Shown one piece after another: positions 8,325 through 29,067 of a DNA stretch of 64,000 nucleotides. Position 1 is the first letter of the stretch; each line of letters starts with the position of its first letter. Below the pieces are notes generated by a model that made no database searches, was not told the origin of the DNA, and saw only the letters and a list, made by a program, of their open reading frames with translations. This DNA is from a virus. Both the position numbers and the translations under genes were made by a program. Location of the stretch: the IMG/VR virus record IMGVR_UViG_3300030098_003955; one strand, 5' to 3'.

Positions 8325-8325
8325 T

Positions 8326-9261: not shown

Positions 9262-9262
9262 A

Positions 9263-13473: not shown

Positions 13474-14184
13474 TTAGAGATATTCCAGCTCGACATATAA
13501 CCCATACTGGGTCTTACTGCCGATACTGTCTGGCGAAGCTGAGATGCCCACATACCAGTCATGCTGAGTGTACTGTCGAGTGTTTCCACTACCGTCACCA
13601 GCGTGTTGGCCACTTGGGCCGGGAGACTGAGCAAGGGGAACGTAAATCCCACTTCCGCCTACGGTATTTGTACCGGCTGGAAGTCTATCGCTGGGATTTG
13701 GAGAGCCTTGAATCGCTCCCTGAGCATCAGCGCCAGTAGAACTTGCACTACCCCACCAGACGGAATCTCCAGAGCCTTCTACACTTGTGCTTGTGGCTGG
13801 GTGAATAAACTCACACGCACGAGTAATCACCCCACTAGCAGGGTGGTTTTTGTTTACTCTGTCAAAGATTCTCATCTTGCAGTTCTGCGTTCTAACTGCC
13901 GTAGCGTTAGTAAACCTAATATTTAATGTAGCTTTGCTATTAGGAATGTATTTTAAGCCAGTAGGAGGCGTAGCCCACTGAACACTGGCTAAAGTGTCAG
14001 AATAGTATTTATTATTGTTTGTAGCGCCACCATTAGTGCTTCCATTACCATCGGTAATGAATGTAGTACTTTGAAATGTGTTTAGTTCTACCGATTGACC
14101 GAAAGAACCACCAAAGAATCCAAGTCCAGATCCCGAAAGGTGATTTACTGCGGTATTACCGGCATAAAATGCAATACTAGCCAT
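13474..14184 (-). CDS. Putative virion structural protein (Gly/Ser/Thr-rich, beta-rich)
   Basis: 236 aa with an AGGAG RBS and its own upstream GTGTATA motif; last gene of the structural block. Confidence 0.7.
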   Translation of the reverse strand: MASIAFYAGNTAVNHLSGSGLGFFGGSFGQSVELNTFQSTTFITDGNGSTNGGATNNNKYYSDTLASVQWATPPTGLKYIPNSKATLNIRFTNATAVRTQNCKMRIFDRVNKNHPASGVITRACEFIHPATSTSVEGSGDSVWWGSASSTGADAQGAIQGSPNPSDRLPAGTNTVGGSGIYVPLAQSPGPSGQHAGDGSGNTRQYTQHDWYVGISASPDSIGSKTQYGLYVELEYL

Positions 14185-14218: not shown

Positions 14219-14227
14219 AATATACAC
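14219..14227 (-). promoter_or_regulatory. Putative late promoter motif GTGTATATT
   Basis: The same motif lies upstream of 50513 and 58269; here it is about 35-45 nt before the ATG at 14184. Confidence 0.55.
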
Positions 14228-14715
14228 TATTCTTGAAAAAAGCCTTTTGTTTTCTTAGGCTTCTTACCATAAGGGAATAGGTTGTTTAGTTTCTCTTGTC
14301 TTCCTCCGCATCCGCAGTCTTTACCCATAGCCTCAAAGGCGGTATCTACTACCTTTTTGATACCTGTGGCCTTTGTAAATTTTGCAAATGTGTCTCCAAA
14401 ACCTCTAGATTCCTTGGGAATTCTAGGATCTCCCATGAAGTATTCTTCTTGGCCTTCCTCTTCTTTAGCTTCCTCTTGGCGTTCTATCTCTTGACCAACT
14501 ACTCTATTGTCCACAATTCTGTGTTCTTGCATTGGCCCTATGCCTTGCTCCCACAAATCAAAATATTTATGATTGAACTTGCATAAATTTTGCAAACTAG
14601 GAGTCTTTTGGCATTGGTGTCTTGGGCAGTATATGTTCGACTCGCTATAAGGACAATCGCACTTTGTGTGCATGGAATCTGCCTGCTCGTCGTCGTTGAA
14701 AAATCCTTTTGTCAT
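14227..14715 (-). CDS. Small Cys-rich protein (N-terminal CxC..C..C module plus GxGDT...CGC..RQ..LN domain), possible tail-tip assembly factor
   Basis: CDCP...YCPRHQCQKT...LC; GFGDTFAKFTKATGIKKVV...DCGCGGRQEKLN. Directly follows the giant gene. Confidence 0.7.
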   Translation of the reverse strand: MTKGFFNDDEQADSMHTKCDCPYSESNIYCPRHQCQKTPSLQNLCKFNHKYFDLWEQGIGPMQEHRIVDNRVVGQEIERQEEAKEEEGQEEYFMGDPRIPKESRGFGDTFAKFTKATGIKKVVDTAFEAMGKDCGCGGRQEKLNNLFPYGKKPKKTKGFFQE

Positions 14716-17700
14716 TTACCCACCTCCTGTCTCTGGTCTTATAGTTCTTGCCTGTTCGTGTAGATGTACTTTTAGAACTGCCGTCCCAACTCCGGGCTCT
14801 GTCTGTACCATAACCGGACCTCCCGGAAGATCATATCCTTTTGATGTTATTATACCCTTCGGTGGCTTGAAGTGCTGACATGTTTCGTCTGGCATAAGCA
14901 TATAGTATGTCATGTTCAGAGGAAGATCGCTGTTGTTTTCTCTACAGCTCACAGAGGCGGTAGGCAGTGCTTCTGGGACGCCTATATTTATATTAAATGA
15001 ACCTACATGCCTACTCCAATATCCATATATCTTTTCATCTTCCAGTCCTAAGTCTTCTGGGAATACCCATCCGGTAAACACTCTCTTAGGGACGGCTCCT
15101 GACTGTCTTAAGAAATCACCAGCCCCATTAAACTGAGTGCCAAAGAACATATTTGGTTTTTTCGCAGCAAAGGTAAACTCACTTCCTATAGATGGTCTAG
15201 GCCGAACAGTGTCTGAACTAGGCATTCCTGCCACTTGGCTTGAAATTCCTCCATGCCCTTCTGGGTCGTTTTTCCTATAGCCTTCTAGATTTAATATATT
15301 TCCTCTGTCGGTTCTTTCTGAGAATAACTGGACATAATCATCGCTAGTACTAGGTGCGTGTTCCCTGTGAGAACAAACGGCACTGTAGGTCACACTTGGA
15401 AGACATCCGCCTTGGATACAAATGCCAGTAGGATCTCTCTTGTCACAGAAATATGTACACTCAGGATCTGCCACGCAACCATTTTCATCTTGCGCCTTGC
15501 TAAAGCATCTTCCGGCCACCTCGTCAAGCCTATCGGTCTCCCTGATTGCGCTAATTTCAAGCAGTGTTTGTCCTTCTATCGTCCAGTTTAGATCGCTGTC
15601 AATACCAAAAGATGTGGACTCTAATACGCAATAGTTACTTTCTTCACATGAGCCTTTGTCTAGGACTGAGCAATCAGAGGCGTGAGCGCAAATAAGAACA
15701 TTTTGCCCACCGCCTGTGGTTGAGCTTACAACAACAGTGTCGTGCTGAGCTCCGCAATGGGCGATCTCGTCTAGTCCTAAATTGTTAACTCCTAACAATC
15801 CACTATGCGCTCTAGAAGAAGAATCAATTGCAATATCATCAAGAGTTCCGTTTGGTTGAACTATCTTAGTAGTAGTACTTCTCAAGAACCTCTTAGTCTT
15901 GTCCGTGACATATCCAACAACACCAATGTCTGCTTTTGACAGTATCTCAACCGCGCTACTGACTTTGGTGATATCGTAGAGTTCTCTTTGGAATAGTTGA
16001 TCGGTCTCAACATCTGGCAAGAATGGAGAGAGAAAGGCTTCTCCTACTTTCTTTGTACCGTCCATTCCAGAGTAAAATCCCATAGAATTATGGTCAGAAT
16101 CAAATAGCTGTGTTGGATTTTGTGAATGCTGAATTGGGTATTCAACAAGGCCTTTTTTGTCTAAAGGATCGTATTTAGCTGACTTTTTATTAAACCCAAA
16201 TCTATCTGCGTTGTCTAAAGGATTTCTGCTGTATTTTGCTAGTCTAGTAAAGTCTTGTTCAAAGTCTGTCTGATGCTCCCAACCAATGACAAACGCCTTG
16301 GTGTCGAGAACTCTTACAATATGCTCTCCATCTAATCCAAACAACTCTCCATTGGAATCCTCTCTAGCGCAGAGAGGGCAGTGCGTAACATCTTCTTCTC
16401 CTTCTGTTTTCTCTACTTCGCAGTCTTGGCAGAAGTTTTCATCTAGACATCCTTTCTCTGTCCTAAACGCCTCTATCTGTGCTTGATTTCTACAGAACAC
16501 AGGACATCCCTGCTCATAATCATAAGCACTCTCTATGCTTGCGTCAGGCCCCCAGCTTCCACCAAGAGTGACTTCGCATATGGTTTTGTCTATCGTGTTA
16601 GCCTTAATTGTCACGCCAGCTATGTCTAGGACGCCACTATACCACACAAGATCAGGGTCTTTCTTGCAGTCCGCTTCGGTGATATTAAAGACAGTTCCAA
16701 AGCCATCTTTTTCATAGCATCCTGTATCCTTGGCGTCTGAAATTACAGACCCATCGACAGTACAAGCTGCATCGTAGCATCTATTGCCACTTATTGTAAT
16801 AAGTTCGTTGTCTAGTAAGTCATGATGTCCTAGTACATGGACGACAGTACCTAAGAATTTAGGAACCCAATATCCTCCAAGTGTAGTGCATTCTGTCCTT
16901 GTTAACGCTCTGTCAGGATCTGAAAGTTCTACATGATTCTCGAATAAGCAACTTCCGTTATCGCCAGTATCATAAACATTTTCGATTCTTTCAATGCTAA
17001 TATGCTTATTACCAATACCTGTAGTCGGATCATAAGGAACTACAGAAGTGTAGTAAGTTCCATTAATTGAATCTTCTAAGTTAAGATTATGAGCAGTAGG
17101 TATCAATCCTACTCTAGAGTGATTGACGCCTAGCCCAAACCCTACTCCAAAGGAATCTCCAACGTGAGTTTTTCCGGGTGTTTTGCCTCCACCAAAAGCC
17201 TGACTACCTACTTGCTGGGAACTCTGTACCGGCATTGGCATTGGATAATTACCATAAGGTGCAGGTAGTTGTAGTTTCTTTACAAAGAATGCCTCTGCTG
17301 GCTGTGGATCACCGTATTCATCTACCGGAATAAACTCTTCATAAATGGCGAACTGCCTGAAGTAAGCATTGTTATTAGTCATTAGCCCAGTCGCATCGTC
17401 AACCTTTATGGTTGTGTATGCTGGAAGCTGTATTCCAAACGATGATGCTCCTCTAGTATCTTTGATTTCATCAACTAGTCTAGCATTTCCAGAGATGTAA
17501 GGATTTTTACTTTTCTTATCTATACTACTTCCATTGTAGCTCCCGGTTTCGGCTTCAAACTTTTCAGCCTTGCCAACACTTACAAGAGTACCTTCGCCAT
17601 AGCTACAGCTTTCCCTGTTATCTATATGTAGTAAGTCATAACTTTCTTCATCATTCTCTATTCTTTCTACCCAAAAGACCCTTCTGTTTAGAGTTGGTTT

Positions 17701-20700
17701 TTTAGGATAATAAGGAGAAGAGGAAAAATTCCACATCTCATTTTGGCCTTGATGAGTGTCTGCCTGCATTGGGAACGCTGCGGCTGCACTATATTCATAT
17801 AAATGACCACTGTAGTCATCTACTATTCTTCCACTAATAAACTCGCACCCTCCAGTACACGGTGGCCTTACGTCGCAGTGTTGTCCGGGAATGCTATGAC
17901 AACTTTGTTTAGTGCAAGAATATCCACTTTCTATCATCTCCTCTCTTGTTACGCACAAGAAAGGAGTTTCTACTACATTTGATATAGCATCGCCAATTTT
18001 GTTTCCTTTATCATCTACTACATCTTCGTATTCATATTTAATTACTACATCAGGACACTGGCTATTAGCTGGAGCAGCAGAGATAGCAGAGGTGTTACAA
18101 GCAACACCACAATGAATAACATCCATTTCTAAATTTAATCTTGGATCTGAATACGTTCTATCTTCCCCAAGAGCATCAGGTGGTATTTGACCATTAAGAG
18201 TTTCAAATAGCCCAACTTCAGGACCGCACTGAGCTACAAGGCGGAAGAAATGACCATCCCTATTGCTTGTAGGTCTAGGAAGATCATTAGATTTTTCATA
18301 TAGGCCGCATCCATAATCGTTCGACGGGCAGCTTCCACAGTCTGCGTTTCTTACAACGTCGTGGTTTCCTGCTCTCACTTTGCTCCTTGGAGGACACTGG
18401 AATACATCTCCGTTTACGACAAACTGATTAGATTTTATATTGCTGGGACTAACACCCCCGACCAGCACTGGCTCAAATTCAGTCTTATAAAAATCACTCC
18501 AACAACAATATTGCTTTTCTACATTTGGGACGCGGAAAGTCTCACAGTTTTGACCCCCTACATACTCGCCTTTTCTTACTCCTTGTCCATCAAATTCAAA
18601 CCTTTCTTTTGCTCCCATCAAAGCCCAATCGCTTCTCCAAGCAGAATCGGTGTACTTCAGATCTATAGTCTTAGATTGGCCAAAGCCTAAACATCCTACC
18701 GTTGGAGCATATATGTCCGCATAACAATGAAATCCGTCGTCGGCAGCTCCCATTTCATTTATGTTAGGACAGCCATCTATACCTCCATGTAGACCAGAAG
18801 CAACAACGTTTTGGTTTATATCACATCTATTCTTGATTTCATTTCCAGCATTGTCTTGCTCACAATTAATTGCCACAGTAGGATTTGGGAAAAATTCAGT
18901 TCCTCCACATCTATGATCTTTCTGACCTCTACAAAATCTAGGAGTTACATTTGTCTCTACGCACGATGGCTCGCAGGCAAAAGGCCTGTTGTTTGGATAT
19001 CCTATGCACGGATCACAAACAGGATCTCCTCCGCCAGCATTACTCATCCAATCACAGCCAGCATTGTTACAATCCGTTCTCGTCGATTGTCCGCTACAAG
19101 CAAATGGATCTGGACTGTTATTACCTTCTACACATTCACCACAGTTTTCAAAGACGTCAGTAGGGTCCATTCCCGGATCTGTAAAGCAAACATCTTGAGG
19201 TATTTCACAAGTTATATTCTGTGCTGTATGACTTCCATTCGCATATAAAGTTGCGACATGGCACCCCATCCACTCTTCAATGGTAGGATAGTCTTTTTTA
19301 CAAGGGTCATCTACTGCGGTGTCTCCCGGAATACAGTCCTCAAGACAACAAGGATGACTAGATCTAGACAAATGTTGGTGGGGAATGTTTCTCAGTTGGT
19401 CAGAAGGTCTAGCACAGAATTTCTTCTGAGCGTCACATCTTAATGAAGCATAGGTTTGTTGTAGATAAGAAATCTCATCGTCATATATTTTTTTAGCGAC
19501 ATGGCAAGTGGACGATGGATCAGAGGAGCAAGGTACAGACTCACACTTACAAGTCTTGCCTTCTATTTCCACATACTTATAATTAGGAGCAACGCAGTCA
19601 ACTTTTTCAATTCCGTTGGCTCTACTTCCATCAGAAACGTTTGTACAGAAACCTTGCTTATTGTTGTCTGTACATTCTTGCATTGTGCTATATTCTTGCG
19701 CATTACAAGACAAGGAAGCGGATAAGTTGATTGCAGCAAAAGCGTCACTCACTTCTTGCTGGATATCACTTTCTCTACACAGTCTGTACTCACTTATTTT
19801 AAGGCCGTACTCATCTAATTGATTGGTAGTATGGTAGCCAACAGCATTGAATCCATCACATGAATTAAATCCACAACCATCATCAGTATATAGGTCGTTC
19901 AATATACTTGTACTTACAGAGCCTATAGTCGCACTGATGGTATCAGGCAAAAAGTGATCGCAGCATACGGGGCATGTCTCTTTGTGCTCTACATAAACAT
20001 AATAATCATCAGCAGGAGGCTCATTTATCAGAGAGCTTCCAGTCCAGCCTTTGAAATATCCATTCTTATTTTGTCCAATACCATAAACATCCTCAGTACG
20101 TATAAGTCCATCTGCGTAGTGATTCCAAGTTCCGCTCCAAGGAACATTACCTAGAATTTCTATCTGACCTCCTTGGATGATGCTCGCTCCGCAGGTCATA
20201 GATACTTGAGGATCATTGGTCAGAACAAACTCATTCTGATTGTACGATGTGTCGTCTTGGCCAGCTACTACTTCTCCGGTTATGTGATGTTTAATACTTG
20301 ATAGGGTAGTCCCGTCTGAAGATGTGGGCCCTGAGTAAGTAACATCTTCACAACCCCTTGGACAACAAGTGTCATTCATAGCTTTGCATGAAGTAAACTT
20401 CAGTCCAGCTCCGCTGAATGTAAATATTGTAGAAGGACAGAAATTATTAGAAAGGAATTGAGATATTCTTTCTGTAGATTCTAAAGTATTGCCGTCGCAG
20501 GTAAACAAAGAGAAATGGTCTTTATCTACTTGCTTTTGTACTAAAAATTCAGCAGGAGCAGGATCACCATTTTCTTTGGTTGCAAAAGAGCACATAGGCT
20601 CTCCGTCAATCCTAAAGCTACAGGCAGGTTTGCAGGCGCTTTCCCTATCAATCCATTCACATAAGCCACCTCCAATGTCTGGTCTAGAAGCTGCCAAAGT

Positions 20701-23700
20701 GCCGCAATCAAGTTGATTCCTAGCCATATCACAATTTGGATATTCAGCCGAAGGAACTTTAGAAACACATTTATAAAGAGAAGCTGCGGTAGATGGCTCG
20801 CATTGAGGAGGATGCCATTTATATATTGGTGGCCAACACGCTTCTTCAGAAACGTTAACACCACCTCCAGTGGAAAGGTCTTCACACCAACCCTGAGCTT
20901 CTTCTACGCCACAACCAGAATCGGCACTAGCATAACAAATCCCAAGTATATCAGGACCAAGTATTTTTTCAGGATTACTGCAACTGACAGTGGTCAATCC
21001 TGCGGGAAGACCCATGCATGGATTACCATCATCATCAACTCCACAATTTTGTTTTAGATGCTCTAGGTCTAAAGGTTTAAATGGATTGTCTTCGAGGAAC
21101 TTAGAAAAGCTTCCAATGTCGTCATGCTTGCATCCTCCAGCACCCTTCCTTAAATAGTCATAAGGACATTCAACCAGAGGCCATATTTGATCATCAGGAC
21201 CATGTTTCTTTAAGTCATATTTTTCTGCTTCTTTTTTAATTATCCTAGAAGCCTTGCCAGTGCCATCAGATTCTAAAGCTGCATGGAACTCAGTCTCAAT
21301 CCAGTCTTTCTTGAATATAGGCGCGTTTACTACAAAGTTTCCATACACAGGGTCGTTGTTGATATAACCAATCTGCAACTTTGTTGGGTAAGAGGGGAGC
21401 TTATGATTGCTTGATTTTACAATAACAGGGTCTGTCAGGCTTGCGTGTTCGACATATCCAAATAGCTGATTGCCTTTGCATGAGTCTGCTTCATAACTAG
21501 AGCTTTTATGCTCTGGCCATAATCCAGTTTCTCCCCAGTATTTGAGAGAGTCTTCTTTTCTCTTAGTTATAAAGGATACATCCCTTCCTAAGAGAGATCC
21601 AAATGTGTCTGCGTCACTTACCGTGCCTTCTCTATACAGAACAGATAAAGATTCTGGGCTTAAAAATTCAGCCTCTTGACATCGACTGTCGTCTGATGTG
21701 CTTTTACATGTGTATCCTACGGTAGCTCCTTGAATGTAGGTTGCTCCGCCGGACTTCCAAGCATCATACCAAGAACAGTTGAGCTCTGTGGCTGGCTTAC
21801 AAGTTCCCACATGACCGGGTTCGGGAGCGTTCCCATTAGCATCAAGGAAGTCTTGCCAGACACAGCATGTATAGTCAATCCCATCGCTGTCAGTACCGGA
21901 AAGGTTTTCACATTTGTTCTGATTGTTGTTTGCTGGGTCTGTAGGACTGGCCATTCCGCCACTCGTATTTGCAGAGACCCCGTTTGTGAACTGCCCACAG
22001 TTAAGACCACATATAGCAGTCTTTGCATTGCAGTCTGTTCTTGCTTGATTTCCAGTAGTTCCAATATCTATGAAAAATGCTTGGCATTTTGTTCGAGCAT
22101 AGGTTTCAAAGGGTATCGAGTGGCGTACTACTTGGCCAGCACCAACGGCAGGTTGATCTTGTGTAGCTTCACAAATTTCCGTACCTACTGCGGCGACATC
22201 GCAATACCCACACTCATCAGGATCATCTATAGCGGCGAAAGAAAGCCCTTCTTCTTTATGACCATTAATAAATAGCTTATCGCTATAAGCAAGATCTAAT
22301 TCGTTACATTTACTTCCATCGCCACCTTCTTCTATAGGGGGACAATGCCCAGCCAGAGGAGTCTTAATCTCGGCAATAGTTGGTGTTGGTTCGCAGAACA
22401 AGTCTGGGCAATCACACTCTGATTCACATCTTTCTAAGGTTGTTTTCTTGTCTAGTAAGTCTTTCTCTGGCTTATAAAGATTTCCCAAGCCTATATCATT
22501 ACAGTTGTCTGGGTCCTTTGGAAGACAAACACCACCCATCAATCTGCATCTTGCAACTGGGCAAACTCCAGTACGGAGATATTCAGCGCCGCAGTTTTGC
22601 GTTGGGAAACAAGCAAGCTCTTGACCTATGGAAGGATCTGGATGATATTCCATCGCCCATACGCTGTGTACGGTGCAATTTCTATCAGTCAACCCAATGT
22701 TGTTTTGAATTCTGTAATTTGAGATATCAACAGACAAAAGCTCACAGGCGTCATGATCCATTACCGGACTGAAAGAGCTACCATTATTCCAATTGGTTGG
22801 GTCGTATTGCTTCTCATTGCCTACCATTTTGAAACATCTTCTAGTTTGAGGGTCGTACTCAACTAGAGGGTCTGTATTTCCAAAGCTGTCTTTGCATAAA
22901 TATGCAACAAAGTCATGATCGAACCAGTAGGCAAGTCCTCTGTTTATTGACAAAGGAGAATAAGATGTCGCTCCGTGACATGGAGAAAACCCAAACGATC
23001 CGGGATCAGCATCCTCTGCGTCTACAACTTGTTGGATAGCCAGATTTCGAGCATTGTCACTCGAAGCAGTTTTACCAATACATAAGTGATATTGGTCAAG
23101 GTCAAACTTTGCTTGTGCTAGTGTTTTGTATTTTAATGATTTGTGTTCAGTAGCCTTAAAGGGCTGTGGTTGCAGATTGAGGTTTCTTAGCCTAAAGTCT
23201 CCGACAGCATGATGGCTTCTGTTAAGAATGTTTGTATATGGATAAATACCAACAACGTTACATTTGACTTGTTTTGCTAGGTTTGGAGAAAGGCAAGTGT
23301 AGTATGGGTCAGGATCAAAAGGATTGTTTTCGTCATGGAGTTTCCAACAGTTGCCATCTGCGTCAGGGCCAAGATCACAGTTTCCTAAGTTGGCGAGTCC
23401 TTCACACTTAGTATCAACCCAAATAGACTCAGCAGCTTCGCACGCAGATCTAGTTGTAGACTTACCGTCTTGGCAAGAGCCATCACAATCAGCAGGAACG
23501 TAACTTGACTCAACCTCATCGCAATGGTCTGGACATGTTGGCTCGTGCCATAGGTAGACAGGACCAAGGCAATCTTCTTTTTCTATTGGTACAGTTACAC
23601 CAGTCGCTACTTCTTCACAAAATCCATCTAAAGGAAGTTCGTGAAATCCACCCTTCGGCGATGTTGGGTTTTCTGGATCAGGGTCTCCCTTACATCCAGC

Positions 23701-26700
23701 ACCTCCTGAAAGAACAAAGTCTAGACCCCAAGCTGATTCTGGATAGTAGGCAACAGAACAAGCAGTACCGCCGGTTTCGCCACAAAAATCTGGGTTTGGA
23801 TGAGAAAGCCCTAGATCAGACAAAAACGCCTCGCTAGGACATCCCGGATAATCCGCAAGCTTATTGTCACCTATTTGCCTAATTCCATCTGTTTCAATTC
23901 TGTATTCGTTGGTGCCAGTAACTAAAAAGGGAATTTGTCTTACAAATCCGGGCCTTCCAAAATCTTTGTCAACATCCTCATTTAGGCAATAACAAAAGTC
24001 TTCGTTGTCTAAAGGCCTTCCCGGAAATGCAACTCCAAAGTGCCTATATCCACTATGGTCTTGGTAAGGAACCATATTTAGGTTATCAAAGCAACCGTAA
24101 TAGTAATCACCGCCTTCTTCTATTCCAGTGCATTCTTTGTTCCCATCATTTACAAAGTATGTACCGTCTATATCAATAGCGTGACCTTCGGGATTATCTT
24201 GGTCAGGTGACTTTTTCCAACATGTCGCACTAGGAGTGCAGCCAGTAGGGCAAGAATCTTTGTTGTCATAAATGTCTGGAGGATTGCCGACGTTGGTGCA
24301 ACCGCCGCCAACGTTAGCTTCTGAATCCACAAGAAGATCTCTAGGAATCCAACCTTTTCTAAATCCTATACTATCTACTTCACTAGCAAAGAAATTACTA
24401 GTACTTGCAAATTGATCTGTGGGAATTTGTAGTACTGTGGTTCTTCCTAGTAAGTGTTCTTTTACCTCGCAAGTACCAAAATTTGTCCACTTCTCAGTAG
24501 CCGACGCTGGCCCATTGCCACACTCAGATTGTTTTCTTGGATTTCCGTCATCATCTTGCAGGCACATGCCAGTGCCCTCTCCTGTAGATGGATCTAATTT
24601 CTCACAGCAAGATCCCTCAGTTTTCCAGTAGCAAGGATTTGTTGATATACCGTTATCATAAACAGTATGCTCACCACAAGTTTCAATTTCTTGAACACCA
24701 CAATCTTTGATAACACTTTGCGAAACGCAGTTGCCGTAATAATCACAGCCCCTAATCGCCAAGTTAAAAAAGCCAGTCTCCTCATCAGTAGCTTCAAGAT
24801 GATAATAGTTTCTATCATAGATGTTTTTTATTCCCTGACAGGAACCATCAGCTTGGAATACTACTTCTTTATGTGGACTATAGCAGACTTGATTGTATTT
24901 CAGTCCAGATACATCTCCTTCTGCATCCATGTGCGGTATATGATGAGGGCTATCATCACTTAAGGCTACTCCACCACAGCAACTACTAGCGTCTGAAATT
25001 CCTATCTCCCAATCAGGAGTCCAGTAAACGCTACTACTTCCAACAACCTCTCTATAAGCAAGACATTGGTATTTATCTATGAAGGCCTCGGCAGTATTAT
25101 GAAATCCGCCTTCTCCTAAGCTATAACATTGAGGCCCAATACCTAATCCAGAAGAAGGATCTGTTTCACCCCTATCTTCGTAAGAGCACTGGTCACTAGA
25201 CTTACAAAGATCGGCGCTAGTAAGGTCTCCACAAGCTACAGTGACACAGCTAGTTCCTGACTCCAAGTCTTCCCAAGCCAGCCAAGTCATTAGGTCGTAG
25301 TTTACATTTTTTTCATACTTATCGTAGTGTACAGTCTCATAAGTAGTAGGACTTGATATCGTTATAGGTTTTTTGCAGCATCTAGACTTTGCAGTACACT
25401 CAGATTCTGTAGGCCTTACAGCTTGAACTATATAACCCTTGGTGACTCCATCCGTCGTCTCGAAGCCTTGAGGGCAATTATCTGGAGTGAATTCTGTAGC
25501 AGGGACATAGCCAACCTGAGAGTTGTAGTACATACACTTAGATAGAAGAAGCTCTCCATCGGCAACAACACCTTCTTCTTCTCTCCATTGTGTACATATG
25601 CCATTTGGGTCAAATTCCTCACAAGCGTTTTGCCAACCCTTAAGAGACATCGTGACAGTCTCTTTTTTATCTTTTATATATACGCCACTAACGCCATCAA
25701 AATTACTCTTTTGGCCGTCTACACTACAATAGTTTGGAAATCTTCTAGGAGCGACTCCATCCTCAATACAACCTATCCTCAAATCTCTTTCATCTTTTAA
25801 GGAGTAAATGGTTCTTGTTGGAAGATGAACCGTAGCTATGTTATCTACTACGTTGTCAGATTCAGGCGAGCTTAAAGAGTTGAATGAAAAAGAGGTTGCT
25901 GCCTTGTCAGTCTTATTATGAAATATTCCGGGAGGCAAATCTCCGATAATATCATATGAAGGGAGGGTATAGTTGAGCGTCGCTAGACCAGCGATTTGAG
26001 AAAATGTGTACTGAGCTTCTCTGTATCTTGAGGACTTACCTACAGGGTCTTGATTGGTCCTATTAACGCTTCTAGCTCTATCGTCTACATCATTACTAAC
26101 ATCATCTCTAAAGACAAAAGATGGTCTGTGTATGCCACCACCACCAGAGAAAGAACAGTCAGACCTTTGACCAGTCACATCAAAGTTTACGATTTCGCCG
26201 TTTACCAAGTTTGGCTCTATGTGTTGTACCGACGCTAGAGCTCCACCACTTATTCGGAGAGCGTCAATCGTAGTTACCGAGCACGGCTCACAGCCACTCC
26301 AGTCTTTTATTTTTGACGTTACAGCGAACTCGCCCGGAGATGTCTCCTCATAAGCGTCTGCGTCTGGATGGCATTGAGTTTTATTAGTCTCAAGGTCTCC
26401 TGTGCCAATGTCACCATCTACATAACCCCATTTGCACTGCATTCCTAAAGTCTTGAGTGCTCCGCACTGCTCTTCGCCCGCCTTTCCTCCGTCTTCATCA
26501 TTGCCACTTTTGTCTGCAAGTTCGCAGGCTGGCCTGCACATCTTTGGAGCTTCTTTTCCACGATCTGGACCAGATCTAATTATTAAGTTTGGGACACTGC
26601 CCCATTTGCAAGAGACTCTATCATTACACTCATCTTCATCTGTTATGTTAGAGCATTCGACAGGCCATTCAAAGTATGGATAATCTCCAGCTGGTTCTAC

Positions 26701-27012
26701 ATAGAAAACTCTAGTGTCAGAATCAAAGCAACACTTTCTGCCCCTCCAAGCTCCATTTGAATATTTGACATCAAATCTTTCAGCTTGGCCTAGTTGTATT
26801 TTCTTCCTAGCCTCATCTCTAGAACCAGCTTTGACAATTGACAAAACCAATTCTTGAGGCAGTATGGGTTGATATCCAGTGAGATTGTTTGAGCACTGTT
26901 GTATACAACCACATCCTATATTGCAAGGATGATGAGTGTTATGACTTCGACGGCCTGTTGACCTGTTGACAAGACCGGGCCAAGAGGTGTCAAAGTTGTC
27001 TCCTATTGTCAT
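14716..27012 (-). CDS. Giant 4098-aa cysteine-rich putative tail-tip / receptor-binding protein
   Basis: Uninterrupted 12.3-kb ORF abutting both neighbours; about 210 Cys by hand count; recurring C..C..CxW modules; downstream of TMP and hub genes; no signal peptide. Confidence 0.8.
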   Translation of the reverse strand: MTIGDNFDTSWPGLVNRSTGRRSHNTHHPCNIGCGCIQQCSNNLTGYQPILPQELVLSIVKAGSRDEARKKIQLGQAERFDVKYSNGAWRGRKCCFDSDTRVFYVEPAGDYPYFEWPVECSNITDEDECNDRVSCKWGSVPNLIIRSGPDRGKEAPKMCRPACELADKSGNDEDGGKAGEEQCGALKTLGMQCKWGYVDGDIGTGDLETNKTQCHPDADAYEETSPGEFAVTSKIKDWSGCEPCSVTTIDALRISGGALASVQHIEPNLVNGEIVNFDVTGQRSDCSFSGGGGIHRPSFVFRDDVSNDVDDRARSVNRTNQDPVGKSSRYREAQYTFSQIAGLATLNYTLPSYDIIGDLPPGIFHNKTDKAATSFSFNSLSSPESDNVVDNIATVHLPTRTIYSLKDERDLRIGCIEDGVAPRRFPNYCSVDGQKSNFDGVSGVYIKDKKETVTMSLKGWQNACEEFDPNGICTQWREEEGVVADGELLLSKCMYYNSQVGYVPATEFTPDNCPQGFETTDGVTKGYIVQAVRPTESECTAKSRCCKKPITISSPTTYETVHYDKYEKNVNYDLMTWLAWEDLESGTSCVTVACGDLTSADLCKSSDQCSYEDRGETDPSSGLGIGPQCYSLGEGGFHNTAEAFIDKYQCLAYREVVGSSSVYWTPDWEIGISDASSCCGGVALSDDSPHHIPHMDAEGDVSGLKYNQVCYSPHKEVVFQADGSCQGIKNIYDRNYYHLEATDEETGFFNLAIRGCDYYGNCVSQSVIKDCGVQEIETCGEHTVYDNGISTNPCYWKTEGSCCEKLDPSTGEGTGMCLQDDDGNPRKQSECGNGPASATEKWTNFGTCEVKEHLLGRTTVLQIPTDQFASTSNFFASEVDSIGFRKGWIPRDLLVDSEANVGGGCTNVGNPPDIYDNKDSCPTGCTPSATCWKKSPDQDNPEGHAIDIDGTYFVNDGNKECTGIEEGGDYYYGCFDNLNMVPYQDHSGYRHFGVAFPGRPLDNEDFCYCLNEDVDKDFGRPGFVRQIPFLVTGTNEYRIETDGIRQIGDNKLADYPGCPSEAFLSDLGLSHPNPDFCGETGGTACSVAYYPESAWGLDFVLSGGAGCKGDPDPENPTSPKGGFHELPLDGFCEEVATGVTVPIEKEDCLGPVYLWHEPTCPDHCDEVESSYVPADCDGSCQDGKSTTRSACEAAESIWVDTKCEGLANLGNCDLGPDADGNCWKLHDENNPFDPDPYYTCLSPNLAKQVKCNVVGIYPYTNILNRSHHAVGDFRLRNLNLQPQPFKATEHKSLKYKTLAQAKFDLDQYHLCIGKTASSDNARNLAIQQVVDAEDADPGSFGFSPCHGATSYSPLSINRGLAYWFDHDFVAYLCKDSFGNTDPLVEYDPQTRRCFKMVGNEKQYDPTNWNNGSSFSPVMDHDACELLSVDISNYRIQNNIGLTDRNCTVHSVWAMEYHPDPSIGQELACFPTQNCGAEYLRTGVCPVARCRLMGGVCLPKDPDNCNDIGLGNLYKPEKDLLDKKTTLERCESECDCPDLFCEPTPTIAEIKTPLAGHCPPIEEGGDGSKCNELDLAYSDKLFINGHKEEGLSFAAIDDPDECGYCDVAAVGTEICEATQDQPAVGAGQVVRHSIPFETYARTKCQAFFIDIGTTGNQARTDCNAKTAICGLNCGQFTNGVSANTSGGMASPTDPANNNQNKCENLSGTDSDGIDYTCCVWQDFLDANGNAPEPGHVGTCKPATELNCSWYDAWKSGGATYIQGATVGYTCKSTSDDSRCQEAEFLSPESLSVLYREGTVSDADTFGSLLGRDVSFITKRKEDSLKYWGETGLWPEHKSSSYEADSCKGNQLFGYVEHASLTDPVIVKSSNHKLPSYPTKLQIGYINNDPVYGNFVVNAPIFKKDWIETEFHAALESDGTGKASRIIKKEAEKYDLKKHGPDDQIWPLVECPYDYLRKGAGGCKHDDIGSFSKFLEDNPFKPLDLEHLKQNCGVDDDGNPCMGLPAGLTTVSCSNPEKILGPDILGICYASADSGCGVEEAQGWCEDLSTGGGVNVSEEACWPPIYKWHPPQCEPSTAASLYKCVSKVPSAEYPNCDMARNQLDCGTLAASRPDIGGGLCEWIDRESACKPACSFRIDGEPMCSFATKENGDPAPAEFLVQKQVDKDHFSLFTCDGNTLESTERISQFLSNNFCPSTIFTFSGAGLKFTSCKAMNDTCCPRGCEDVTYSGPTSSDGTTLSSIKHHITGEVVAGQDDTSYNQNEFVLTNDPQVSMTCGASIIQGGQIEILGNVPWSGTWNHYADGLIRTEDVYGIGQNKNGYFKGWTGSSLINEPPADDYYVYVEHKETCPVCCDHFLPDTISATIGSVSTSILNDLYTDDGCGFNSCDGFNAVGYHTTNQLDEYGLKISEYRLCRESDIQQEVSDAFAAINLSASLSCNAQEYSTMQECTDNNKQGFCTNVSDGSRANGIEKVDCVAPNYKYVEIEGKTCKCESVPCSSDPSSTCHVAKKIYDDEISYLQQTYASLRCDAQKKFCARPSDQLRNIPHQHLSRSSHPCCLEDCIPGDTAVDDPCKKDYPTIEEWMGCHVATLYANGSHTAQNITCEIPQDVCFTDPGMDPTDVFENCGECVEGNNSPDPFACSGQSTRTDCNNAGCDWMSNAGGGDPVCDPCIGYPNNRPFACEPSCVETNVTPRFCRGQKDHRCGGTEFFPNPTVAINCEQDNAGNEIKNRCDINQNVVASGLHGGIDGCPNINEMGAADDGFHCYADIYAPTVGCLGFGQSKTIDLKYTDSAWRSDWALMGAKERFEFDGQGVRKGEYVGGQNCETFRVPNVEKQYCCWSDFYKTEFEPVLVGGVSPSNIKSNQFVVNGDVFQCPPRSKVRAGNHDVVRNADCGSCPSNDYGCGLYEKSNDLPRPTSNRDGHFFRLVAQCGPEVGLFETLNGQIPPDALGEDRTYSDPRLNLEMDVIHCGVACNTSAISAAPANSQCPDVVIKYEYEDVVDDKGNKIGDAISNVVETPFLCVTREEMIESGYSCTKQSCHSIPGQHCDVRPPCTGGCEFISGRIVDDYSGHLYEYSAAAAFPMQADTHQGQNEMWNFSSSPYYPKKPTLNRRVFWVERIENDEESYDLLHIDNRESCSYGEGTLVSVGKAEKFEAETGSYNGSSIDKKSKNPYISGNARLVDEIKDTRGASSFGIQLPAYTTIKVDDATGLMTNNNAYFRQFAIYEEFIPVDEYGDPQPAEAFFVKKLQLPAPYGNYPMPMPVQSSQQVGSQAFGGGKTPGKTHVGDSFGVGFGLGVNHSRVGLIPTAHNLNLEDSINGTYYTSVVPYDPTTGIGNKHISIERIENVYDTGDNGSCLFENHVELSDPDRALTRTECTTLGGYWVPKFLGTVVHVLGHHDLLDNELITISGNRCYDAACTVDGSVISDAKDTGCYEKDGFGTVFNITEADCKKDPDLVWYSGVLDIAGVTIKANTIDKTICEVTLGGSWGPDASIESAYDYEQGCPVFCRNQAQIEAFRTEKGCLDENFCQDCEVEKTEGEEDVTHCPLCAREDSNGELFGLDGEHIVRVLDTKAFVIGWEHQTDFEQDFTRLAKYSRNPLDNADRFGFNKKSAKYDPLDKKGLVEYPIQHSQNPTQLFDSDHNSMGFYSGMDGTKKVGEAFLSPFLPDVETDQLFQRELYDITKVSSAVEILSKADIGVVGYVTDKTKRFLRSTTTKIVQPNGTLDDIAIDSSSRAHSGLLGVNNLGLDEIAHCGAQHDTVVVSSTTGGGQNVLICAHASDCSVLDKGSCEESNYCVLESTSFGIDSDLNWTIEGQTLLEISAIRETDRLDEVAGRCFSKAQDENGCVADPECTYFCDKRDPTGICIQGGCLPSVTYSAVCSHREHAPSTSDDYVQLFSERTDRGNILNLEGYRKNDPEGHGGISSQVAGMPSSDTVRPRPSIGSEFTFAAKKPNMFFGTQFNGAGDFLRQSGAVPKRVFTGWVFPEDLGLEDEKIYGYWSRHVGSFNINIGVPEALPTASVSCRENNSDLPLNMTYYMLMPDETCQHFKPPKGIITSKGYDLPGGPVMVQTEPGVGTAVLKVHLHEQARTIRPETGGG

Positions 27013-27015
27013 TCT

Positions 27016-29067
27016 CTATATAATCCCTCTAGTTGGGTAATCATCATTCGGTCCACAATCTTCTGGAGTTACATATCCTTGAGCGAAGAATTTCCTAGTA
27101 CAAGCTGCCATCTCTCCTTGTTCGCAACCTGCGTGGGTAATGATGTCCATTCCAAAGAACTCACCCTGTAGTATAACATGCACTGGTATTATCTCTTTAA
27201 CGGTAACTGGGTTTCCAGCAGGGAATCCATTCCTTATATGAGATCCTTGCATGTCAGACTTTACATACTCAAAAATAACTCTTCTGCCAGTGTCATAGCT
27301 AAAGAAGTTATCACCTAAGTTTAACCCTTGACCTAGTGGGTTTTCTATAAATATTTTTTGATACAAAGTTGACATAGCGGCGTCAGAAAATCTTCCTGCT
27401 TCTACCTTGTGAGAGAGCTGCTCTACCTTGCTTTTTAGTTTCTGGTCAGAGTATGCTCCTCCCATTCCATGGCAAGGGTCTCCCATTCTTCTAGCGTAAG
27501 GAGAGCCGTTTGATGTTTTTCTGAACTTGTCACCACAATCACTGTAATCTCCACCAGCAACATAATGGTCTACAGACCTAAGTATTACTGCGTCATAAAA
27601 AGGAACACAGTTATTCCTAAAGTCTGTACAGTTTACATATGGGTTACCATTACCATCTTCCTTTACCTGACAGTTTCCTCCCCAGTCAATATCTTCAGGA
27701 TCGTAGATTTCTATATCAGGATAGTGAGGACTTCTCGCAAAGTAGACGCTAAACTCACAAGGCTCGTTTGGACATACATTTCTATAAAGCCTTCCGGGAT
27801 TATTGATATTACCTCCAACCCCTAAGTTGAAAGAGTTCTTGCCATCAGGCCCAGCTTTGGGAAGTATACACTTAGTTGCTTTTGACAGGTAAACTCCATT
27901 ATGCCTACCACCAACCCAAACTTTTCTTTCTCTGTCCCATCTCAAGTCGATTGGTCCGGTCTTCCACTTATCAGTCCTTCTGAGGTGACCATTCAAAAAG
28001 TGTTGCTTTGTCGTGTTTGGGATTTTACTTGGGAATGTTTGCTCGGCGATGCAAACTTCACTACTTGTACCTTTGTCTTTTAATGTATAGGTTACGGTTG
28101 AGCCATCGCTAAGAACATAGACCTTGGAGCCATCAGCATCTACGTGCTCACTATCAACAGTTGATGACCAAGTAGAAACATCAAATCCAGTTCCTGCCGG
28201 ATCGCAGCTAGCGGCTCCCGGAAATTTTTGGGAAAACATAATTGTCTTCCCGTATCGTCTACTGTGAGGGTCGCCTACCCTTAAGTCTGACTCTAGTTTG
28301 GCGTTTGGTACAGGCAGTCCTTCTAGGTCAAAGCCCCAGCCAGACATAACCATAGGACCTCTAAAGGCAACAGGCCTAGCAGGGGAATCAGCCTTTATTG
28401 TAGTAGAACCAAACTTTGGAAGTGACGGAGACTGGTTTTTAGTTTTTTGCGTGGCTACTTCTTTAGGGTCGTTGCCAGCTAAGCTCATTTCAATTGTAGA
28501 GCCAATAACGTATGGATTTAGTACTGCACTACTAGGTAATCCACTTCCCTGAACCATAAAGCTAGAAAAAGATTTAGTAGCATCTGCATTATTAACATAA
28601 GCAAAAGGTGTTTCAAATGAAGGAAACCTTAAATCTGTCTCCTTGTCTTTACCGCCTTCAGAGTTGAATATCTCCCCAGATAAAGTTCTTATTTTGAATC
28701 CGGCAGATATCGGTATAAATATAGAGTCTAGGGTGGCAGAAGCGCCTTGGTTGTAGTCTTTGTTTTGTAAGTAATTCTGCTCTTCTGGGTTCGCGCTTTG
28801 CGCCGCTTTATTAGCCGGAAAAAAAGTACTAAGCTGATCTTTTGTGGTTGTACCTACACTGTACTCCGCCATTAAGATAGGAACAGACGTTCCCATAAAT
28901 GTAAGAACGCTAGCACCATCTGCCTTTGTTTGTGTAGGAAGTCCTGTCATCCCAGCGTTCAAAATGACTGGCGATGGTCTATAGTTAGCAGCTAAGACCA
29001 CATGCGAAACATTTGACTGACTGGCATGTGTCTTCTTATGCTGTTCTACTTTGTGTATATTAGCCAT
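27016..29067 (-). CDS. Putative tail-tip protein with a Cys-containing C-terminal half
   Basis: 683 aa, coupled to the 2123-aa gene; RGPMVMSGWGFD...GPIDLRWD...W; position in the tail-tip block. Confidence 0.65.
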   Translation of the reverse strand: MANIHKVEQHKKTHASQSNVSHVVLAANYRPSPVILNAGMTGLPTQTKADGASVLTFMGTSVPILMAEYSVGTTTKDQLSTFFPANKAAQSANPEEQNYLQNKDYNQGASATLDSIFIPISAGFKIRTLSGEIFNSEGGKDKETDLRFPSFETPFAYVNNADATKSFSSFMVQGSGLPSSAVLNPYVIGSTIEMSLAGNDPKEVATQKTKNQSPSLPKFGSTTIKADSPARPVAFRGPMVMSGWGFDLEGLPVPNAKLESDLRVGDPHSRRYGKTIMFSQKFPGAASCDPAGTGFDVSTWSSTVDSEHVDADGSKVYVLSDGSTVTYTLKDKGTSSEVCIAEQTFPSKIPNTTKQHFLNGHLRRTDKWKTGPIDLRWDRERKVWVGGRHNGVYLSKATKCILPKAGPDGKNSFNLGVGGNINNPGRLYRNVCPNEPCEFSVYFARSPHYPDIEIYDPEDIDWGGNCQVKEDGNGNPYVNCTDFRNNCVPFYDAVILRSVDHYVAGGDYSDCGDKFRKTSNGSPYARRMGDPCHGMGGAYSDQKLKSKVEQLSHKVEAGRFSDAAMSTLYQKIFIENPLGQGLNLGDNFFSYDTGRRVIFEYVKSDMQGSHIRNGFPAGNPVTVKEIIPVHVILQGEFFGMDIITHAGCEQGEMAACTRKFFAQGYVTPEDCGPNDDYPTRGII

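What the first reader, a model, noticed from the sequence alone, without database searches (positions are those of the whole stretch)
14716..27012. 4098-aa cysteine-rich tail protein resembling eukaryotic surface antigens
It has about 210 Cys (about 5%) by hand count, in short modules: C-x7/8-C-x4/5-C-x-[WY] (CSNITDEDECNDRVSCKW, CGDLTSADLCKSSDQCSY, CSGQSTRTDCNNAGCDW), CxxxGGxW (CTTLGGYW, CEVTLGGSW) and a repeat G[FW]C....G......C..P.Y.W..P.C (about 23520-23630, 20800-20893, 19570-19655). The spacing looks like disulfide-bonded extracellular modules rather than CxxC zinc fingers, yet there is no signal peptide and phages assemble in reducing cytoplasm. This implies post-lysis oxidation, a phage redox-folding pathway or massive metal loading, and an unusually large adsorption device.
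Basis: partly seen in the sequence, partly recalled or inferred. Interest (0 to 1): 0.82.

Follow-up and report, generated by a model that had tools for sequence, protein, structure and literature searches.

The report
Giant cysteine-packed phage tail-tip protein
An uncultured marine phage encodes, at the end of its tail gene block, a 4098-residue protein whose 212 cysteines are almost perfectly conserved; it is most likely a disulfide-stapled host-adsorption device of a rare, undescribed family, but the chemistry of the cysteines is inferred, not shown.

Summary
Window 14716-27012 (-) is one ORF of 4098 aa with 212 Cys (5.17%, against 1.16% in the other 41 ORFs).

It is the last large gene after a 2154-aa tape measure gene, in an operon whose gene order is kept in relatives.

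It belongs to a rare family: 31 hits among 1.84 billion representative proteins. Members are 2189-4200 aa, 3.9-6.7% Cys, and come from uncultured marine phage contigs. No Pfam, PHROG or PDB match was found. Two relatives carry an inserted M23 peptidase domain, which fits a tail-tip protein that meets the cell wall.

Cys is by far the most conserved residue: 209 of 212 at 56% identity, and 74% across distant lineages, against 15% for His. CxxC is not enriched. Strain-level variation avoids every Cys and piles up in Cys-bracketed loops. This favours disulfide frames displaying variable binding loops over zinc fingers.

Weak points: parity tests failed, AlphaFold failed, and metal sites are not excluded. 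No Erv oxidase was found. Three relatives encode a PDI-like CPHC/CPFC thioredoxin-fold protein, but it could serve their ribonucleotide reductase instead.

There is no homology to eukaryotic surface antigens. The scan noted this same stretch in overlapping windows, and Erv-linked Cys-rich tail proteins on other DNA.

The parts
14716..27012 (-). Giant Cys-rich ORF (4098 aa, 212 Cys), stop codon included
   Evidence: pN/pS is 0.26 against a 95%-identical strain.
26713..27012 (-). Family-signature N-terminal domain (aa 1-100): M-x-I-G-D-N-F-D-T-S, HPCNIGCGC, LPxEL, GAWRGRKCC. Invariant C30, C34, C36, C95.
   Evidence: Alignment A6 of 16 family members. This is the most conserved part of the family.
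26293..26712 (-). Lineage-specific Cys-rich insertion (aa ~101-240) inside the N-terminal domain. It separates GAWRGRKCC from CEPCSVTT, which adjoin in most relatives.
23533..23625 (-). Copy 1 of the G[FW]C-x15-C-x2-P-x-Y-x-W-x3-C module (aa 1130-1160). The loop between its first two Cys is a strain-level hot spot.
20800..20892 (-). Copy 2 of the same module (aa 2041-2071), also a strain-level hot spot
19567..19653 (-). Copy 3 of the same module (aa 2454-2482), conserved between strains
22093..22212 (-). Strongest strain-level hot spot (aa 1601-1640; 26 of 40 positions vary), bracketed by invariant Cys. The 56% homolog has an insertion here carrying two extra Cys.
21313..21450 (-). Cys-poor conserved scaffold segment (aa ~1855-1900); in most relatives it reads T-x-P-I-x-I-K-S-x-x-H-x-L-x-x-G-D-x-I-x-I-x-G-V-x-G-N-F-x-A-N
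19951..19974 (-). CPVCCDHF motif (aa 2347-2354): C-P-x-C-x-D-H invariant across all 18 aligned family sequences. Candidate metal site or disulfide knot.
16528..17700 (-). Conserved C-terminal-third core (aa 3105-3495), the only part AlphaFold2 modelled with pLDDT 70-83. Beta-rich, with a small barrel-like domain and no significant fold match.
15973..16212 (-). Cys-free, lineage-specific hot spot (aa 3601-3680; 28 variable positions)
14719..15024 (-). Family-conserved C-terminal domain (aa 3997-4098; WSRHGGSFNI motif)
14227..14715 (-). 162-aa Cys/His-rich small protein encoded directly after the giant (first codon adjoins its stop codon). Conserved after the giant gene in all 6 distinct loci that show its downstream side. 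KTKGFF-type ends; CGC-x2-RQ-x2-LN motif.
   Evidence: No family found.
13474..14184 (-). 236-aa Gly/Ser/Thr-rich protein. It always follows the pair and is 98% identical between lineages whose giants are 56% identical.
27016..29067 (-). 683-aa upstream tail-module protein; 13 of 13 Cys conserved at 70% identity
29060..35431 (-). 2123-aa upstream tail-module protein; 35 of 36 Cys conserved at 59% identity
40394..46858 (-). Tape measure protein (2154 aa, no Cys), which anchors the tail module
   Evidence: PHROG tape-measure families, E down to 1e-28

Best explanation
The ORF encodes a structural protein of the distal tail (tail tip, baseplate or fibre) of an uncultured, long-tailed marine phage. 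It belongs to a rare, undescribed family.

A collinear scaffold of conserved segments is kept across the family. It consists of an N-terminal docking domain, several Cys-poor beta-rich segments and a C-terminal domain. Between and inside these segments, each lineage has acquired different Cys-rich modules.

Most of the 212 cysteines form intramolecular disulfides. These staple small modules and hold out loops that vary between strains and bind the host surface. A few invariant clusters (HPCNIGCGC, CPVCCDHF) may instead bind metal.

The protein has no export signal. Oxidation therefore happens either after lysis in oxic seawater or in the infected cell with help from a phage thioredoxin-fold oxidoreductase.

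Shown: the gene is real, it lies in the tail module, the family exists, and Cys are extremely conserved. Inferred: presence in the virion, disulfide chemistry, loop-display binding and the route of oxidation.
For: Position:
- It is the fifth large gene after the tape measure gene, packed tightly in one operon.
- The same order (2114-2155 aa, 683 aa, giant, 159-162 aa, 236 aa) is seen in relatives.
- Two family members carry an inserted Peptidase_M23 domain: P0018 at 38.9 bits (above the Pfam cut-off) and P0020 at E 1.2e-5. In phages this domain is typical of tail-tip and tape measure proteins that cross the cell wall (established knowledge).

Real, selected gene:
- pN/pS is 0.26 against a 95%-identical strain.

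Cys are structural:
- 209 of 212 Cys are kept at 58.6% overall identity, against 48% for His.
- Across 14 more distant sequences the identities are Cys 74%, Trp 52%, Gly 42% and His 15%. Seventy Cys but only 4 His are kept in at least 10 of the 14.
- None of 255 strain-variable positions is a Cys.

Disulfide rather than zinc fingers:
- CxxC occurs 8 times against 10.9 expected, and no spacing from 1 to 12 stands out strongly.
- No zinc-finger Pfam family was found.
- Cys differences between the two closest lineages come as one pair gained inside an insertion, one pair (C2717 and C2730) lost together, and one 5-residue shift.
- Some column pairs co-vary by substitution, for example 1917/1939, which are both absent here but Cys in the 14 more distant aligned sequences.

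Loop display:
- Strain-level changes cluster in Cys-bracketed loops at aa 1121-1160, 1601-1640 and 2041-2080.

Precedent:
- Disulfides are proven in phage tails and baseplates: Pam3 (PMC9942802), and gp39, Milano and Q-beta (PMC13576161).

Possible catalyst:
- All three relatives with genomes at least 83% complete encode one ~100-aa thioredoxin-fold protein with a WCPHC or WCPFC active site.
- Its best PDB matches are PDI catalytic domains (E 1e-8), ahead of thioredoxins (E 6e-5).
Against: - No direct evidence that the protein is in the virion.
- No fold or family match ties it to known fibres or hubs.
- Parity does not support all-paired Cys. Complete family members have 7 even and 5 odd totals. 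Lineage-private blocks have 7 even and 12 odd counts.
- Nearby co-varying Cys columns are only twice the background rate.
- Two single Cys gains in the closest homolog are unpaired in sequence.
- Both AlphaFold2 models were poor (mean pLDDT 34.5 and 40.9), and no coordinates were available, so Cys-Cys geometry could not be read.
- No Erv or DsbA gene was found in four related contigs.
- The nearest relative's 100-kb contig has no thioredoxin-fold gene.
- In the three genomes that have the gene, an RNR-like 730-aa ORF lies 5-7 kb away, so the gene may simply reduce RNR.
- Invariant motifs with His next to Cys (HPCNIGCGC, CPVCCDHF) look like metal sites.
Confidence: 0.5

Rival explanations
1. 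The protein is a tail or virion protein, but its cysteines mainly coordinate metals (Zn, or Fe-S clusters) loaded in the reducing cytoplasm. The protein would then be a chain of small metal knuckles rather than disulfide knots.
For: - It is assembled without an export signal.
- Invariant H-x-C-x3-C-x-C and C-x2-C-C-D-H motifs are present.
- The total Cys count is odd in 5 of 12 complete members.
- The small downstream partner protein has a Cys/His cluster.
- From memory, not checked here: lambda gpL tail-tip proteins bind an Fe-S cluster.
Against: - CxxC and CxxxxC are not enriched.
- His identity is 15-48%, against 74-99% for Cys.
- No zinc-finger or ribbon family was found at E <= 1.
- Two Cys, not four, were lost or gained together.
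- Cys-bracketed loops of 12-30 residues are typical of disulfide loops.
Confidence: 0.2
2. The protein is not a fixed adsorption structure. It is instead a cargo or ejected protein, or one released at lysis, that acts on the host envelope or in the environment.
For: - The M23 peptidase insert in two relatives would also suit an ejected cell-wall-degrading protein.
- No fibre or hub fold was recognised.
- Both termini are conserved across the family, whereas classical receptor-binding proteins have variable C-termini.
Against: - It sits after the tape measure and other tail-tip genes, not among head or internal-protein genes.
- Strain-level hot spots fit surface recognition.
- A 450-kDa, Cys-stapled protein is poorly suited to passing through a tail tube (inference).
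Confidence: 0.12
3. The cysteines are substrates for another enzymatic cross-link (thioether or radical-SAM type stapling) or for glycan attachment by the neighbouring sugar island, rather than for disulfides.
For: - A glycosyltransferase, sugar-epimerase and methyltransferase island faces the tail operon.
- Other windows of this scan reported radical-SAM plus Cys-repeat tail systems (unchecked here).
Against: - The Cys are not periodic. CxxxC occurs 17 times against 10.9 expected, and there is no repeat ladder.
- Pfam scans of the window ORFs that were scanned found no radical-SAM enzyme.
- S-glycosylation on this scale has no precedent (established knowledge).
Confidence: 0.05

Closest known systems
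Disulfide-linked tail fibre and baseplate of cyanophage Pam3 (gp22/gp23/gp24; PMC9942802); also the disulfide-cross-linked tails of phage Milano and siphovirus gp39 (PMC13576161)
   Same: These are phage tail proteins made in the cytoplasm without a signal peptide that nevertheless carry functional disulfides in the virion. DTT detaches the Pam3 fibres.
   Different: Those proteins have 1-6 disulfides per subunit in ordinary-sized proteins. Here there could be up to about 106 in a single 4098-aa chain. There is no sequence or fold similarity, and the chemistry is not shown here.
Central tail fibre and tail-associated lysin proteins of siphophages (lambda gpJ, T5 pb3/pb4, TP901-1 Tal)
   Same: They are large genes after the tape measure gene. 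Some carry M23 or other cell-wall hydrolase domains, as two relatives of this protein do. A small beta-barrel in the model aligns weakly with lambda gpJ residues 490-564 (Z 4.2).
   Different: No Pfam, PHROG or PDB sequence match was found. The structural Z-score is within noise. This protein is 3-4 times larger and about 5% Cys, whereas those proteins are Cys-poor (established knowledge).
Cytoplasmic disulfide pathways of nucleocytoplasmic large DNA viruses (vaccinia E10R-A2.5L-G4L; ASFV pB119L; mimivirus R596, PMC3509050)
   Same: A virus assembling in a reducing compartment must oxidise many structural cysteines. Relatives of this phage encode a thioredoxin-fold CxxC protein whose best solved matches are PDI domains.
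   Different: No Erv-family oxidase was detected in four related contigs. The thioredoxin-fold gene is not found in the nearest relative's 100 kb, and it lies near an RNR-like gene.
   Same: High Cys content, with invariant Cys and variable residues between them.
   Different: No homology was found, Cys spacing is not periodic, and there is no signal peptide or membrane anchor.
Cys-packed phage tail proteins paired with Erv-like oxidases, reported by this scan on other genomes (e1-5354972, e1-5273095, e1-3410219)
   Same: A phage tail-module protein with tens of Cys and no obvious zinc-finger pattern.
   Different: Here the gene directly downstream is a 162-aa Cys/His protein with no Erv signature. 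This protein has four to seven times as many Cys.

Membership tests
Phage distal-tail proteins (tail fibre, central fibre, Tal) | Encoded in the tail module downstream of the tape measure gene | tested here: met
   The tape measure gene at 40394-46858 was identified by PHROGs. The giant is the fifth gene after it on the same strand. The gene order is kept in L001-L008.
Phage distal-tail proteins (tail fibre, central fibre, Tal) | A recognisable fibre, hub or Tal domain by sequence or fold | tested here: inconclusive
   No Pfam, PHROG or PDB sequence match. AlphaFold2 mean pLDDT was 34.5 and 40.9. Best VIA Z was 5.2 on a generic small beta-barrel.
Phage distal-tail proteins (tail fibre, central fibre, Tal) | Cell-wall hydrolase domain (Tal-type) | tested here: not met
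   P0001 has no such domain. Two family members have an inserted Peptidase_M23 domain.
Phage distal-tail proteins (tail fibre, central fibre, Tal) | Physical presence at the tail tip of the virion | not testable with these tools
   The phage is uncultured and known from metagenomes only.
Zinc-finger / zinc-ribbon proteins | Paired CxxC (or CxxC/HxxH) ligand motifs in excess | tested here: not met
   CxxC occurs 8 times against 10.9 +/- 3.3 expected; spacing 2 is depleted. In relatives CxxC is at chance level except in P0019 (17 against 9.2).
Zinc-finger / zinc-ribbon proteins | Match to a zinc-binding family model | tested here: not met
   The only hit is a sub-threshold Cas_CXXC_CXXC match (15.7 bits against a cut-off of 21) at aa 3056-3102. 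Three relatives gave nothing.
Eukaryotic Cys-rich surface antigens (VSP, EGF, furin-like, TNFR) | Family signature, periodic Cys repeat, signal peptide and anchor | tested here: not met
   No Pfam hit at E <= 1. Only one three-copy ~30-aa module was found. There is no hydrophobic N- or C-terminal segment.
Viral cytoplasmic disulfide-formation system | Erv/ALR-type sulfhydryl oxidase in the genome | tested here: inconclusive
   PF04777 six-frame search of four related contigs gave 0 matches at E <= 0.1. The window's own genome is not held, and the nearest contig is about 50% complete.
Viral cytoplasmic disulfide-formation system | Thioredoxin-fold CxxC oxidoreductase partner | tested here: inconclusive
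   Present (WCPHC or WCPFC active site) in G003, G004 and G005. Absent from the 100-kb nearest relative. An RNR-like ORF nearby offers another role.
Disulfide-rich structural protein (generic) | Cys conserved far above other residues and gained or lost in pairs | tested here: inconclusive
   Conservation is met. Pairing is seen between the two closest lineages and in some columns. Parity of totals (7 even, 5 odd) and of private blocks (7 even, 12 odd) gives no support.

The most novel reading that the evidence does not exclude
The giant protein and its Cys-conserving neighbours (the 683-aa and 2123-aa proteins) form a redox-switched adsorption machine. More than 100 disulfides per chain would be installed by a phage PDI-like enzyme or by seawater oxygen after lysis, and they would be needed to arm the tail tip. 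Reduction on contact with the host envelope would unlock it for DNA delivery. The invariant Cys framework would serve as a general scaffold on which marine phages evolve new receptor-binding loops, a phage counterpart of knottin or antibody-like loop display.
Probability: 0.15. Interest if true: 0.85.

Novelty: new variant of a known kind. Interest (0 to 1): 0.6.

Why it matters
Phage particles are built in a reducing cytoplasm, and known virion disulfides number a handful per subunit. If a single tail protein relies on about a hundred of them, phage assembly must include an oxidative maturation step, either enzymatic or environmental. It would also tie the infectivity of abundant marine phages to redox conditions.

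The family offers a possible natural loop-display scaffold, with invariant Cys and strain-variable loops, relevant to host-range evolution. It has no Pfam, PHROG or solved-structure relative, so it marks a blind spot in current annotation of ocean viromes.

Tried and rejected
Searches that found nothing:
- Pfam, PHROGs and PDB sequence or profile searches of the giant, of three relatives and of its neighbours gave no informative family.
- INPHARED phage genomes by DNA and by protein gave no match for the giant. The only protein match for a neighbour was the tape measure protein.
- GTDB genomes hold no prophage copy, so there is no host clue. The window has no tRNA.
- An ESM Atlas feature search of aa 3040-4098 gave scores of 0.81 or less, which is uninformative.
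- The literature searches found no described disulfide-rich giant phage tail protein.

Structure:
- AlphaFold2 on aa 2140-3060 gave pLDDT 34.5, which is unusable, so no fold search was made.
- AlphaFold2 on aa 3061-4098 gave pLDDT 40.9 with a partial core. Foldseek against PDB and BFVD found nothing at E <= 0.001. VIA-wide gave Z <= 5.2, which is within noise.
- My recalled lead that the H-x-L-x-x-G-D-x-I-x-I-x-G segments are E1-FCCH-like phage barrels got no Pfam support. Its only structural support was Z of about 4 to UBA1/E1 FCCH. I dropped it as a claim.

Cysteine pairing:
- Parity of total Cys (7 even, 5 odd) and of lineage-private blocks (7 even, 12 odd) does not support all-paired Cys.
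- Co-varying Cys columns show only a 2-fold enrichment of nearby pairs, and the result is confounded by phylogeny.

Redox genes:
- The idea of an Erv-like oxidase directly downstream, taken from earlier scan notes, does not hold. The 162-aa neighbour has no Erv signature, and PF04777 is absent from related contigs.
- DsbA was not found.

Rejected readings:
- Artefact or non-coding ORF. Rejected on 16 homologous full-length or near-full-length genes and pN/pS of 0.26.
Full report
**Observation.** Window 14716-27012 on the minus strand is a single ATG-started ORF of 4098 codons. It holds 212 Cys, or 5.17%. The other 41 ORFs of the window hold 192 Cys in 16598 residues (1.16%), and the tape measure protein and several other structural proteins have none. 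The binomial tail is 4.5e-70, and base composition alone would give about 3.1%.

The N-terminus is polar, and no hydrophobic run of 14 or more residues exists anywhere, so there is no signal peptide or anchor.

Two corrections apply. The protein is not a periodic repeat protein, because fragment-against-fragment BLAST finds only that one small module. Of the short motifs, C-x6-9-C-x4-6-C-x-[WYF] is enriched (4 against 0.6 expected), whereas C-x-GG-x-W is not enriched in this protein (2 against 0.7 expected), although it is in some relatives.

**Context.** On the same strand lies a 2154-aa tape measure protein at 40394-46858, with PHROG tape-measure families at E down to 1e-28. It is followed by genes of 829 aa (with a Laminin_G_3 domain), 819, 2123 and 683 aa. 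Then come the giant, a 162-aa Cys/His-rich protein and a 236-aa Gly/Ser/Thr-rich protein.

Genes abut or overlap throughout. The giant starts 3 nt after the 683-aa gene ends, and the 162-aa gene starts at the base after the giant's stop codon. On the opposite strand a sugar-nucleotide, glycosyltransferase and methyltransferase island faces this operon.

No genome is held for the window. Identical or near-identical copies come from marine metagenomes, including a Tara Oceans assembly. Another first-stage note reports a split DnaE polymerase elsewhere in the genome (unchecked here), which would point to a bacterial host. No tRNA, prophage copy or cultured relative gave a host.

**The family.** Word-indexed and pattern searches found several relatives:
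- a 97% copy
- a 56% homolog of 4200 aa with 214 Cys
- more distant genes of 2189-3222 aa in IMG/VR contigs of 100-161 kb and in ocean metagenome contigs

A profile of aa 2140-3060 searched against 1.84 billion representative proteins returned only 31 hits, nine of them long family members. All members share several features:
- 3.9-6.7% Cys
- an N-terminal signature: M-x-I-G-D-N-F-D-T-S, HPCNIGCGC (variant GRFC-x-EGCGC), LPxEL, GAWRGRKCC, C[DE]PC-x-VTT
- a conserved C-terminus (WSRHGG-x-F-x-I)

Pairwise maps show a collinear scaffold of conserved segments at about aa 1-100, 650-770, 1250-1380, 1800-1950, 2150-2400, 2550-3000, 3100-3550 and 4000-4098. These are separated by lineage-specific stretches.

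Insertions occur at different points in different lineages. In this lineage a ~140-aa Cys module lies inside the N-terminal domain, whereas L008 and L015 have a different insertion at another point of the same domain. Cys density is similar in scaffold (5.6%) and private parts (4.7%).

Two members carry an inserted Peptidase_M23 domain. From established knowledge, such cell-wall hydrolase domains in phages are characteristic of tape measure and tail-tip proteins. Together with gene position, this makes a distal-tail role the best-supported reading. The gene is under purifying selection (pN/pS 0.26 against a 95% strain).

**What the cysteines are doing.** Cys is the most conserved residue by a wide margin:
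- 209 of 212 are kept at 58.6% overall identity, against 88% for Trp and 48% for His.
- Across 14 more distant sequences, identities are 74% for Cys, 52% for Trp, 42% for Gly and 15% for His. Seventy Cys but only four His are kept in at least 10 of the 14.
- Among strains 95-97% identical there are 255 variable positions, and none is a Cys. The chance of that is about 1e-6 at 5.17% Cys.

The spacing spectrum is close to random. CxxC occurs 8 times against 10.9 expected, so the zinc-knuckle or ribbon signature is missing.

Between the two closest lineages the Cys differences fall into four groups:
- two Cys gained together in one insertion
- C2717 and C2730 lost together
- one Cys shifted by five residues
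- two isolated gains

Some Cys columns also co-vary by substitution. For example, the pair at aa 1917/1939 is absent here but is Cys in the 14 more distant aligned sequences.

Strain-level variation is concentrated in Cys-bracketed loops, while the Cys frame is fixed. The hot spots are aa 1121-1160 and 2041-2080, which are the loop between the first two Cys of the repeated module, and aa 1601-1640, where 26 of 40 positions vary. This pattern is what disulfide-constrained, surface-exposed binding loops would give.

The neighbours behave the same way: 35 of 36 Cys are kept in the 2123-aa protein and 13 of 13 in the 683-aa protein.

**Limits of that inference.** Parity does not help. Complete family members have 7 even and 5 odd Cys totals, and lineage-private blocks have 7 even and 12 odd counts. 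Nearby co-varying pairs are only twice the background rate.

Invariant motifs with an adjacent His (HPCNIGCGC, CPVCCDHF) could be metal sites. AlphaFold2 with 18-sequence alignments failed for aa 2140-3060 (pLDDT 34.5). For aa 3061-4098 it gave only a partial core (pLDDT 40.9, with 157 residues at 70 or above). Coordinates are not exposed, so Cys geometry could not be checked.

Fold searches gave nothing significant:
- Foldseek against PDB: best E 0.83
- Foldseek against BFVD: best E 0.01
- VIA-wide: best Z 5.2, on generic small beta-barrels that include lambda gpJ 490-564 at Z 4.2

My estimate is therefore about 0.5 for "tail-tip protein stabilised mainly by disulfides" and about 0.2 for "mainly metal-loaded".

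**How oxidation could happen.** No Erv (PF04777) or DsbA (PF01323) gene was found in four related contigs. The three relatives whose genomes are at least 83% complete each encode one ~100-aa thioredoxin-fold protein with a WCPHC (twice) or WCPFC active site. It lies next to an epimerase gene. Its best solved-structure matches are PDI catalytic domains (E 1e-8), ahead of thioredoxins (E 6e-5). C-x-H-C is the DsbA/PDI-type motif (established knowledge).

Two facts weaken this lead. An RNR-like 730-aa ORF lies 5-7 kb away in the same genomes, so the protein may simply be the RNR reductant. The nearest relative of the window, a 100-kb contig about 50% complete, has no such gene.

Post-lysis oxidation in oxic seawater remains the simplest route. 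Functional disulfides in cytoplasmically assembled phage tails are experimentally established for Pam3 (PMC9942802), and for gp39, Milano and Q-beta (PMC13576161), though at a scale of a few per subunit.

**Comparison and novelty.** The protein works like a distal-tail adsorption protein, but it cannot be filed in any described family. The analogy with eukaryotic surface antigens fails on homology, periodicity and topology. Literature searches found no description of such a protein.

This scan has flagged the same stretch from overlapping windows. On other genomes it has flagged Cys-packed tail proteins coupled to Erv-like oxidases. Here the downstream neighbour is not Erv-like.

I rate it a new variant of a known kind: a phage tail protein with an extreme, conserved Cys framework. 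It is of fairly high interest because of its scale (up to about 106 disulfides per chain) and the open question of oxidative maturation. That interest is tempered by the lack of any direct evidence on the chemistry.

Noticed in passing
window 82-10842 (+): A run of glycosyltransferases (GT2, GT-B type, weak GT25), three NAD-dependent epimerase/dehydratases, a nucleotidyltransferase and TylF/Methyltransf_24 methyltransferases faces the tail operon. It could glycosylate virion proteins or alter the host surface; this was not tested.
   Followed up: partly
window 13474-14184 (-): The 236-aa Gly/Ser/Thr-rich protein is 98.3% identical between lineages whose giant proteins are only 56% identical. 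It follows the giant plus small-protein pair in every locus. It is an unusually constrained unknown protein with no family hit.
   Followed up: partly
window 14227-14715 (-): The 162-aa protein directly after the giant is conserved in every locus that shows the giant's downstream side. It has an N-terminal C-x-C...C-x-R-H-x-C Cys/His cluster, an acidic linker, a G-D-T-x-A-K-x-T-K-A-T-G-I-K...C-G-C-x2-R-Q-x2-L-N motif, and K-T-K-G-F-F at both ends. It could be a metal-binding assembly factor for the giant. It has no known family and is not Erv-like.
   Followed up: partly
P0018 aa 1619-1664; P0020 aa 1423-1468 (family members): A Peptidase_M23 domain is inserted into the variable region that corresponds to aa ~2180-2290 of the window protein.
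   Followed up: yes
L017 1495-1812 (-), L018 1495-1791 (-), L019 1492-1848 (-): These are ~100-aa thioredoxin-fold proteins with WCPHC or WCPFC active sites in three related phage genomes. They lie beside an epimerase gene, and their best PDB matches are PDI domains. An RNR-like ORF lies 5-7 kb away.
   Followed up: partly
window 27016-35431 (-): The 683-aa and 2123-aa tail-module proteins keep 13 of 13 and 35 of 36 Cys at 70% and 59% identity. The Cys framework therefore extends beyond the giant protein.
   Followed up: partly
window 37890-40379 (-): The first gene after the tape measure gene (829 aa) has a Laminin_G_3 / concanavalin-like lectin domain at aa 197-334. This resembles the carbohydrate-binding inserts of 'evolved' distal tail proteins (recalled, not tested).
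   Followed up: no
P0019 aa ~2950-3197: One family member has a C-terminal extension beyond the family's conserved C-terminus. It is proline-rich and is followed by a segment that looks vWA-like by eye. Pfam gave no hit.
   Followed up: partly
window 12092-13015 (+): A 307-aa protein with an N-terminal HeH/LEM (SAP-like) DNA-binding motif lies between the glycan island and the tail operon. It is conserved in L001.
   Followed up: no
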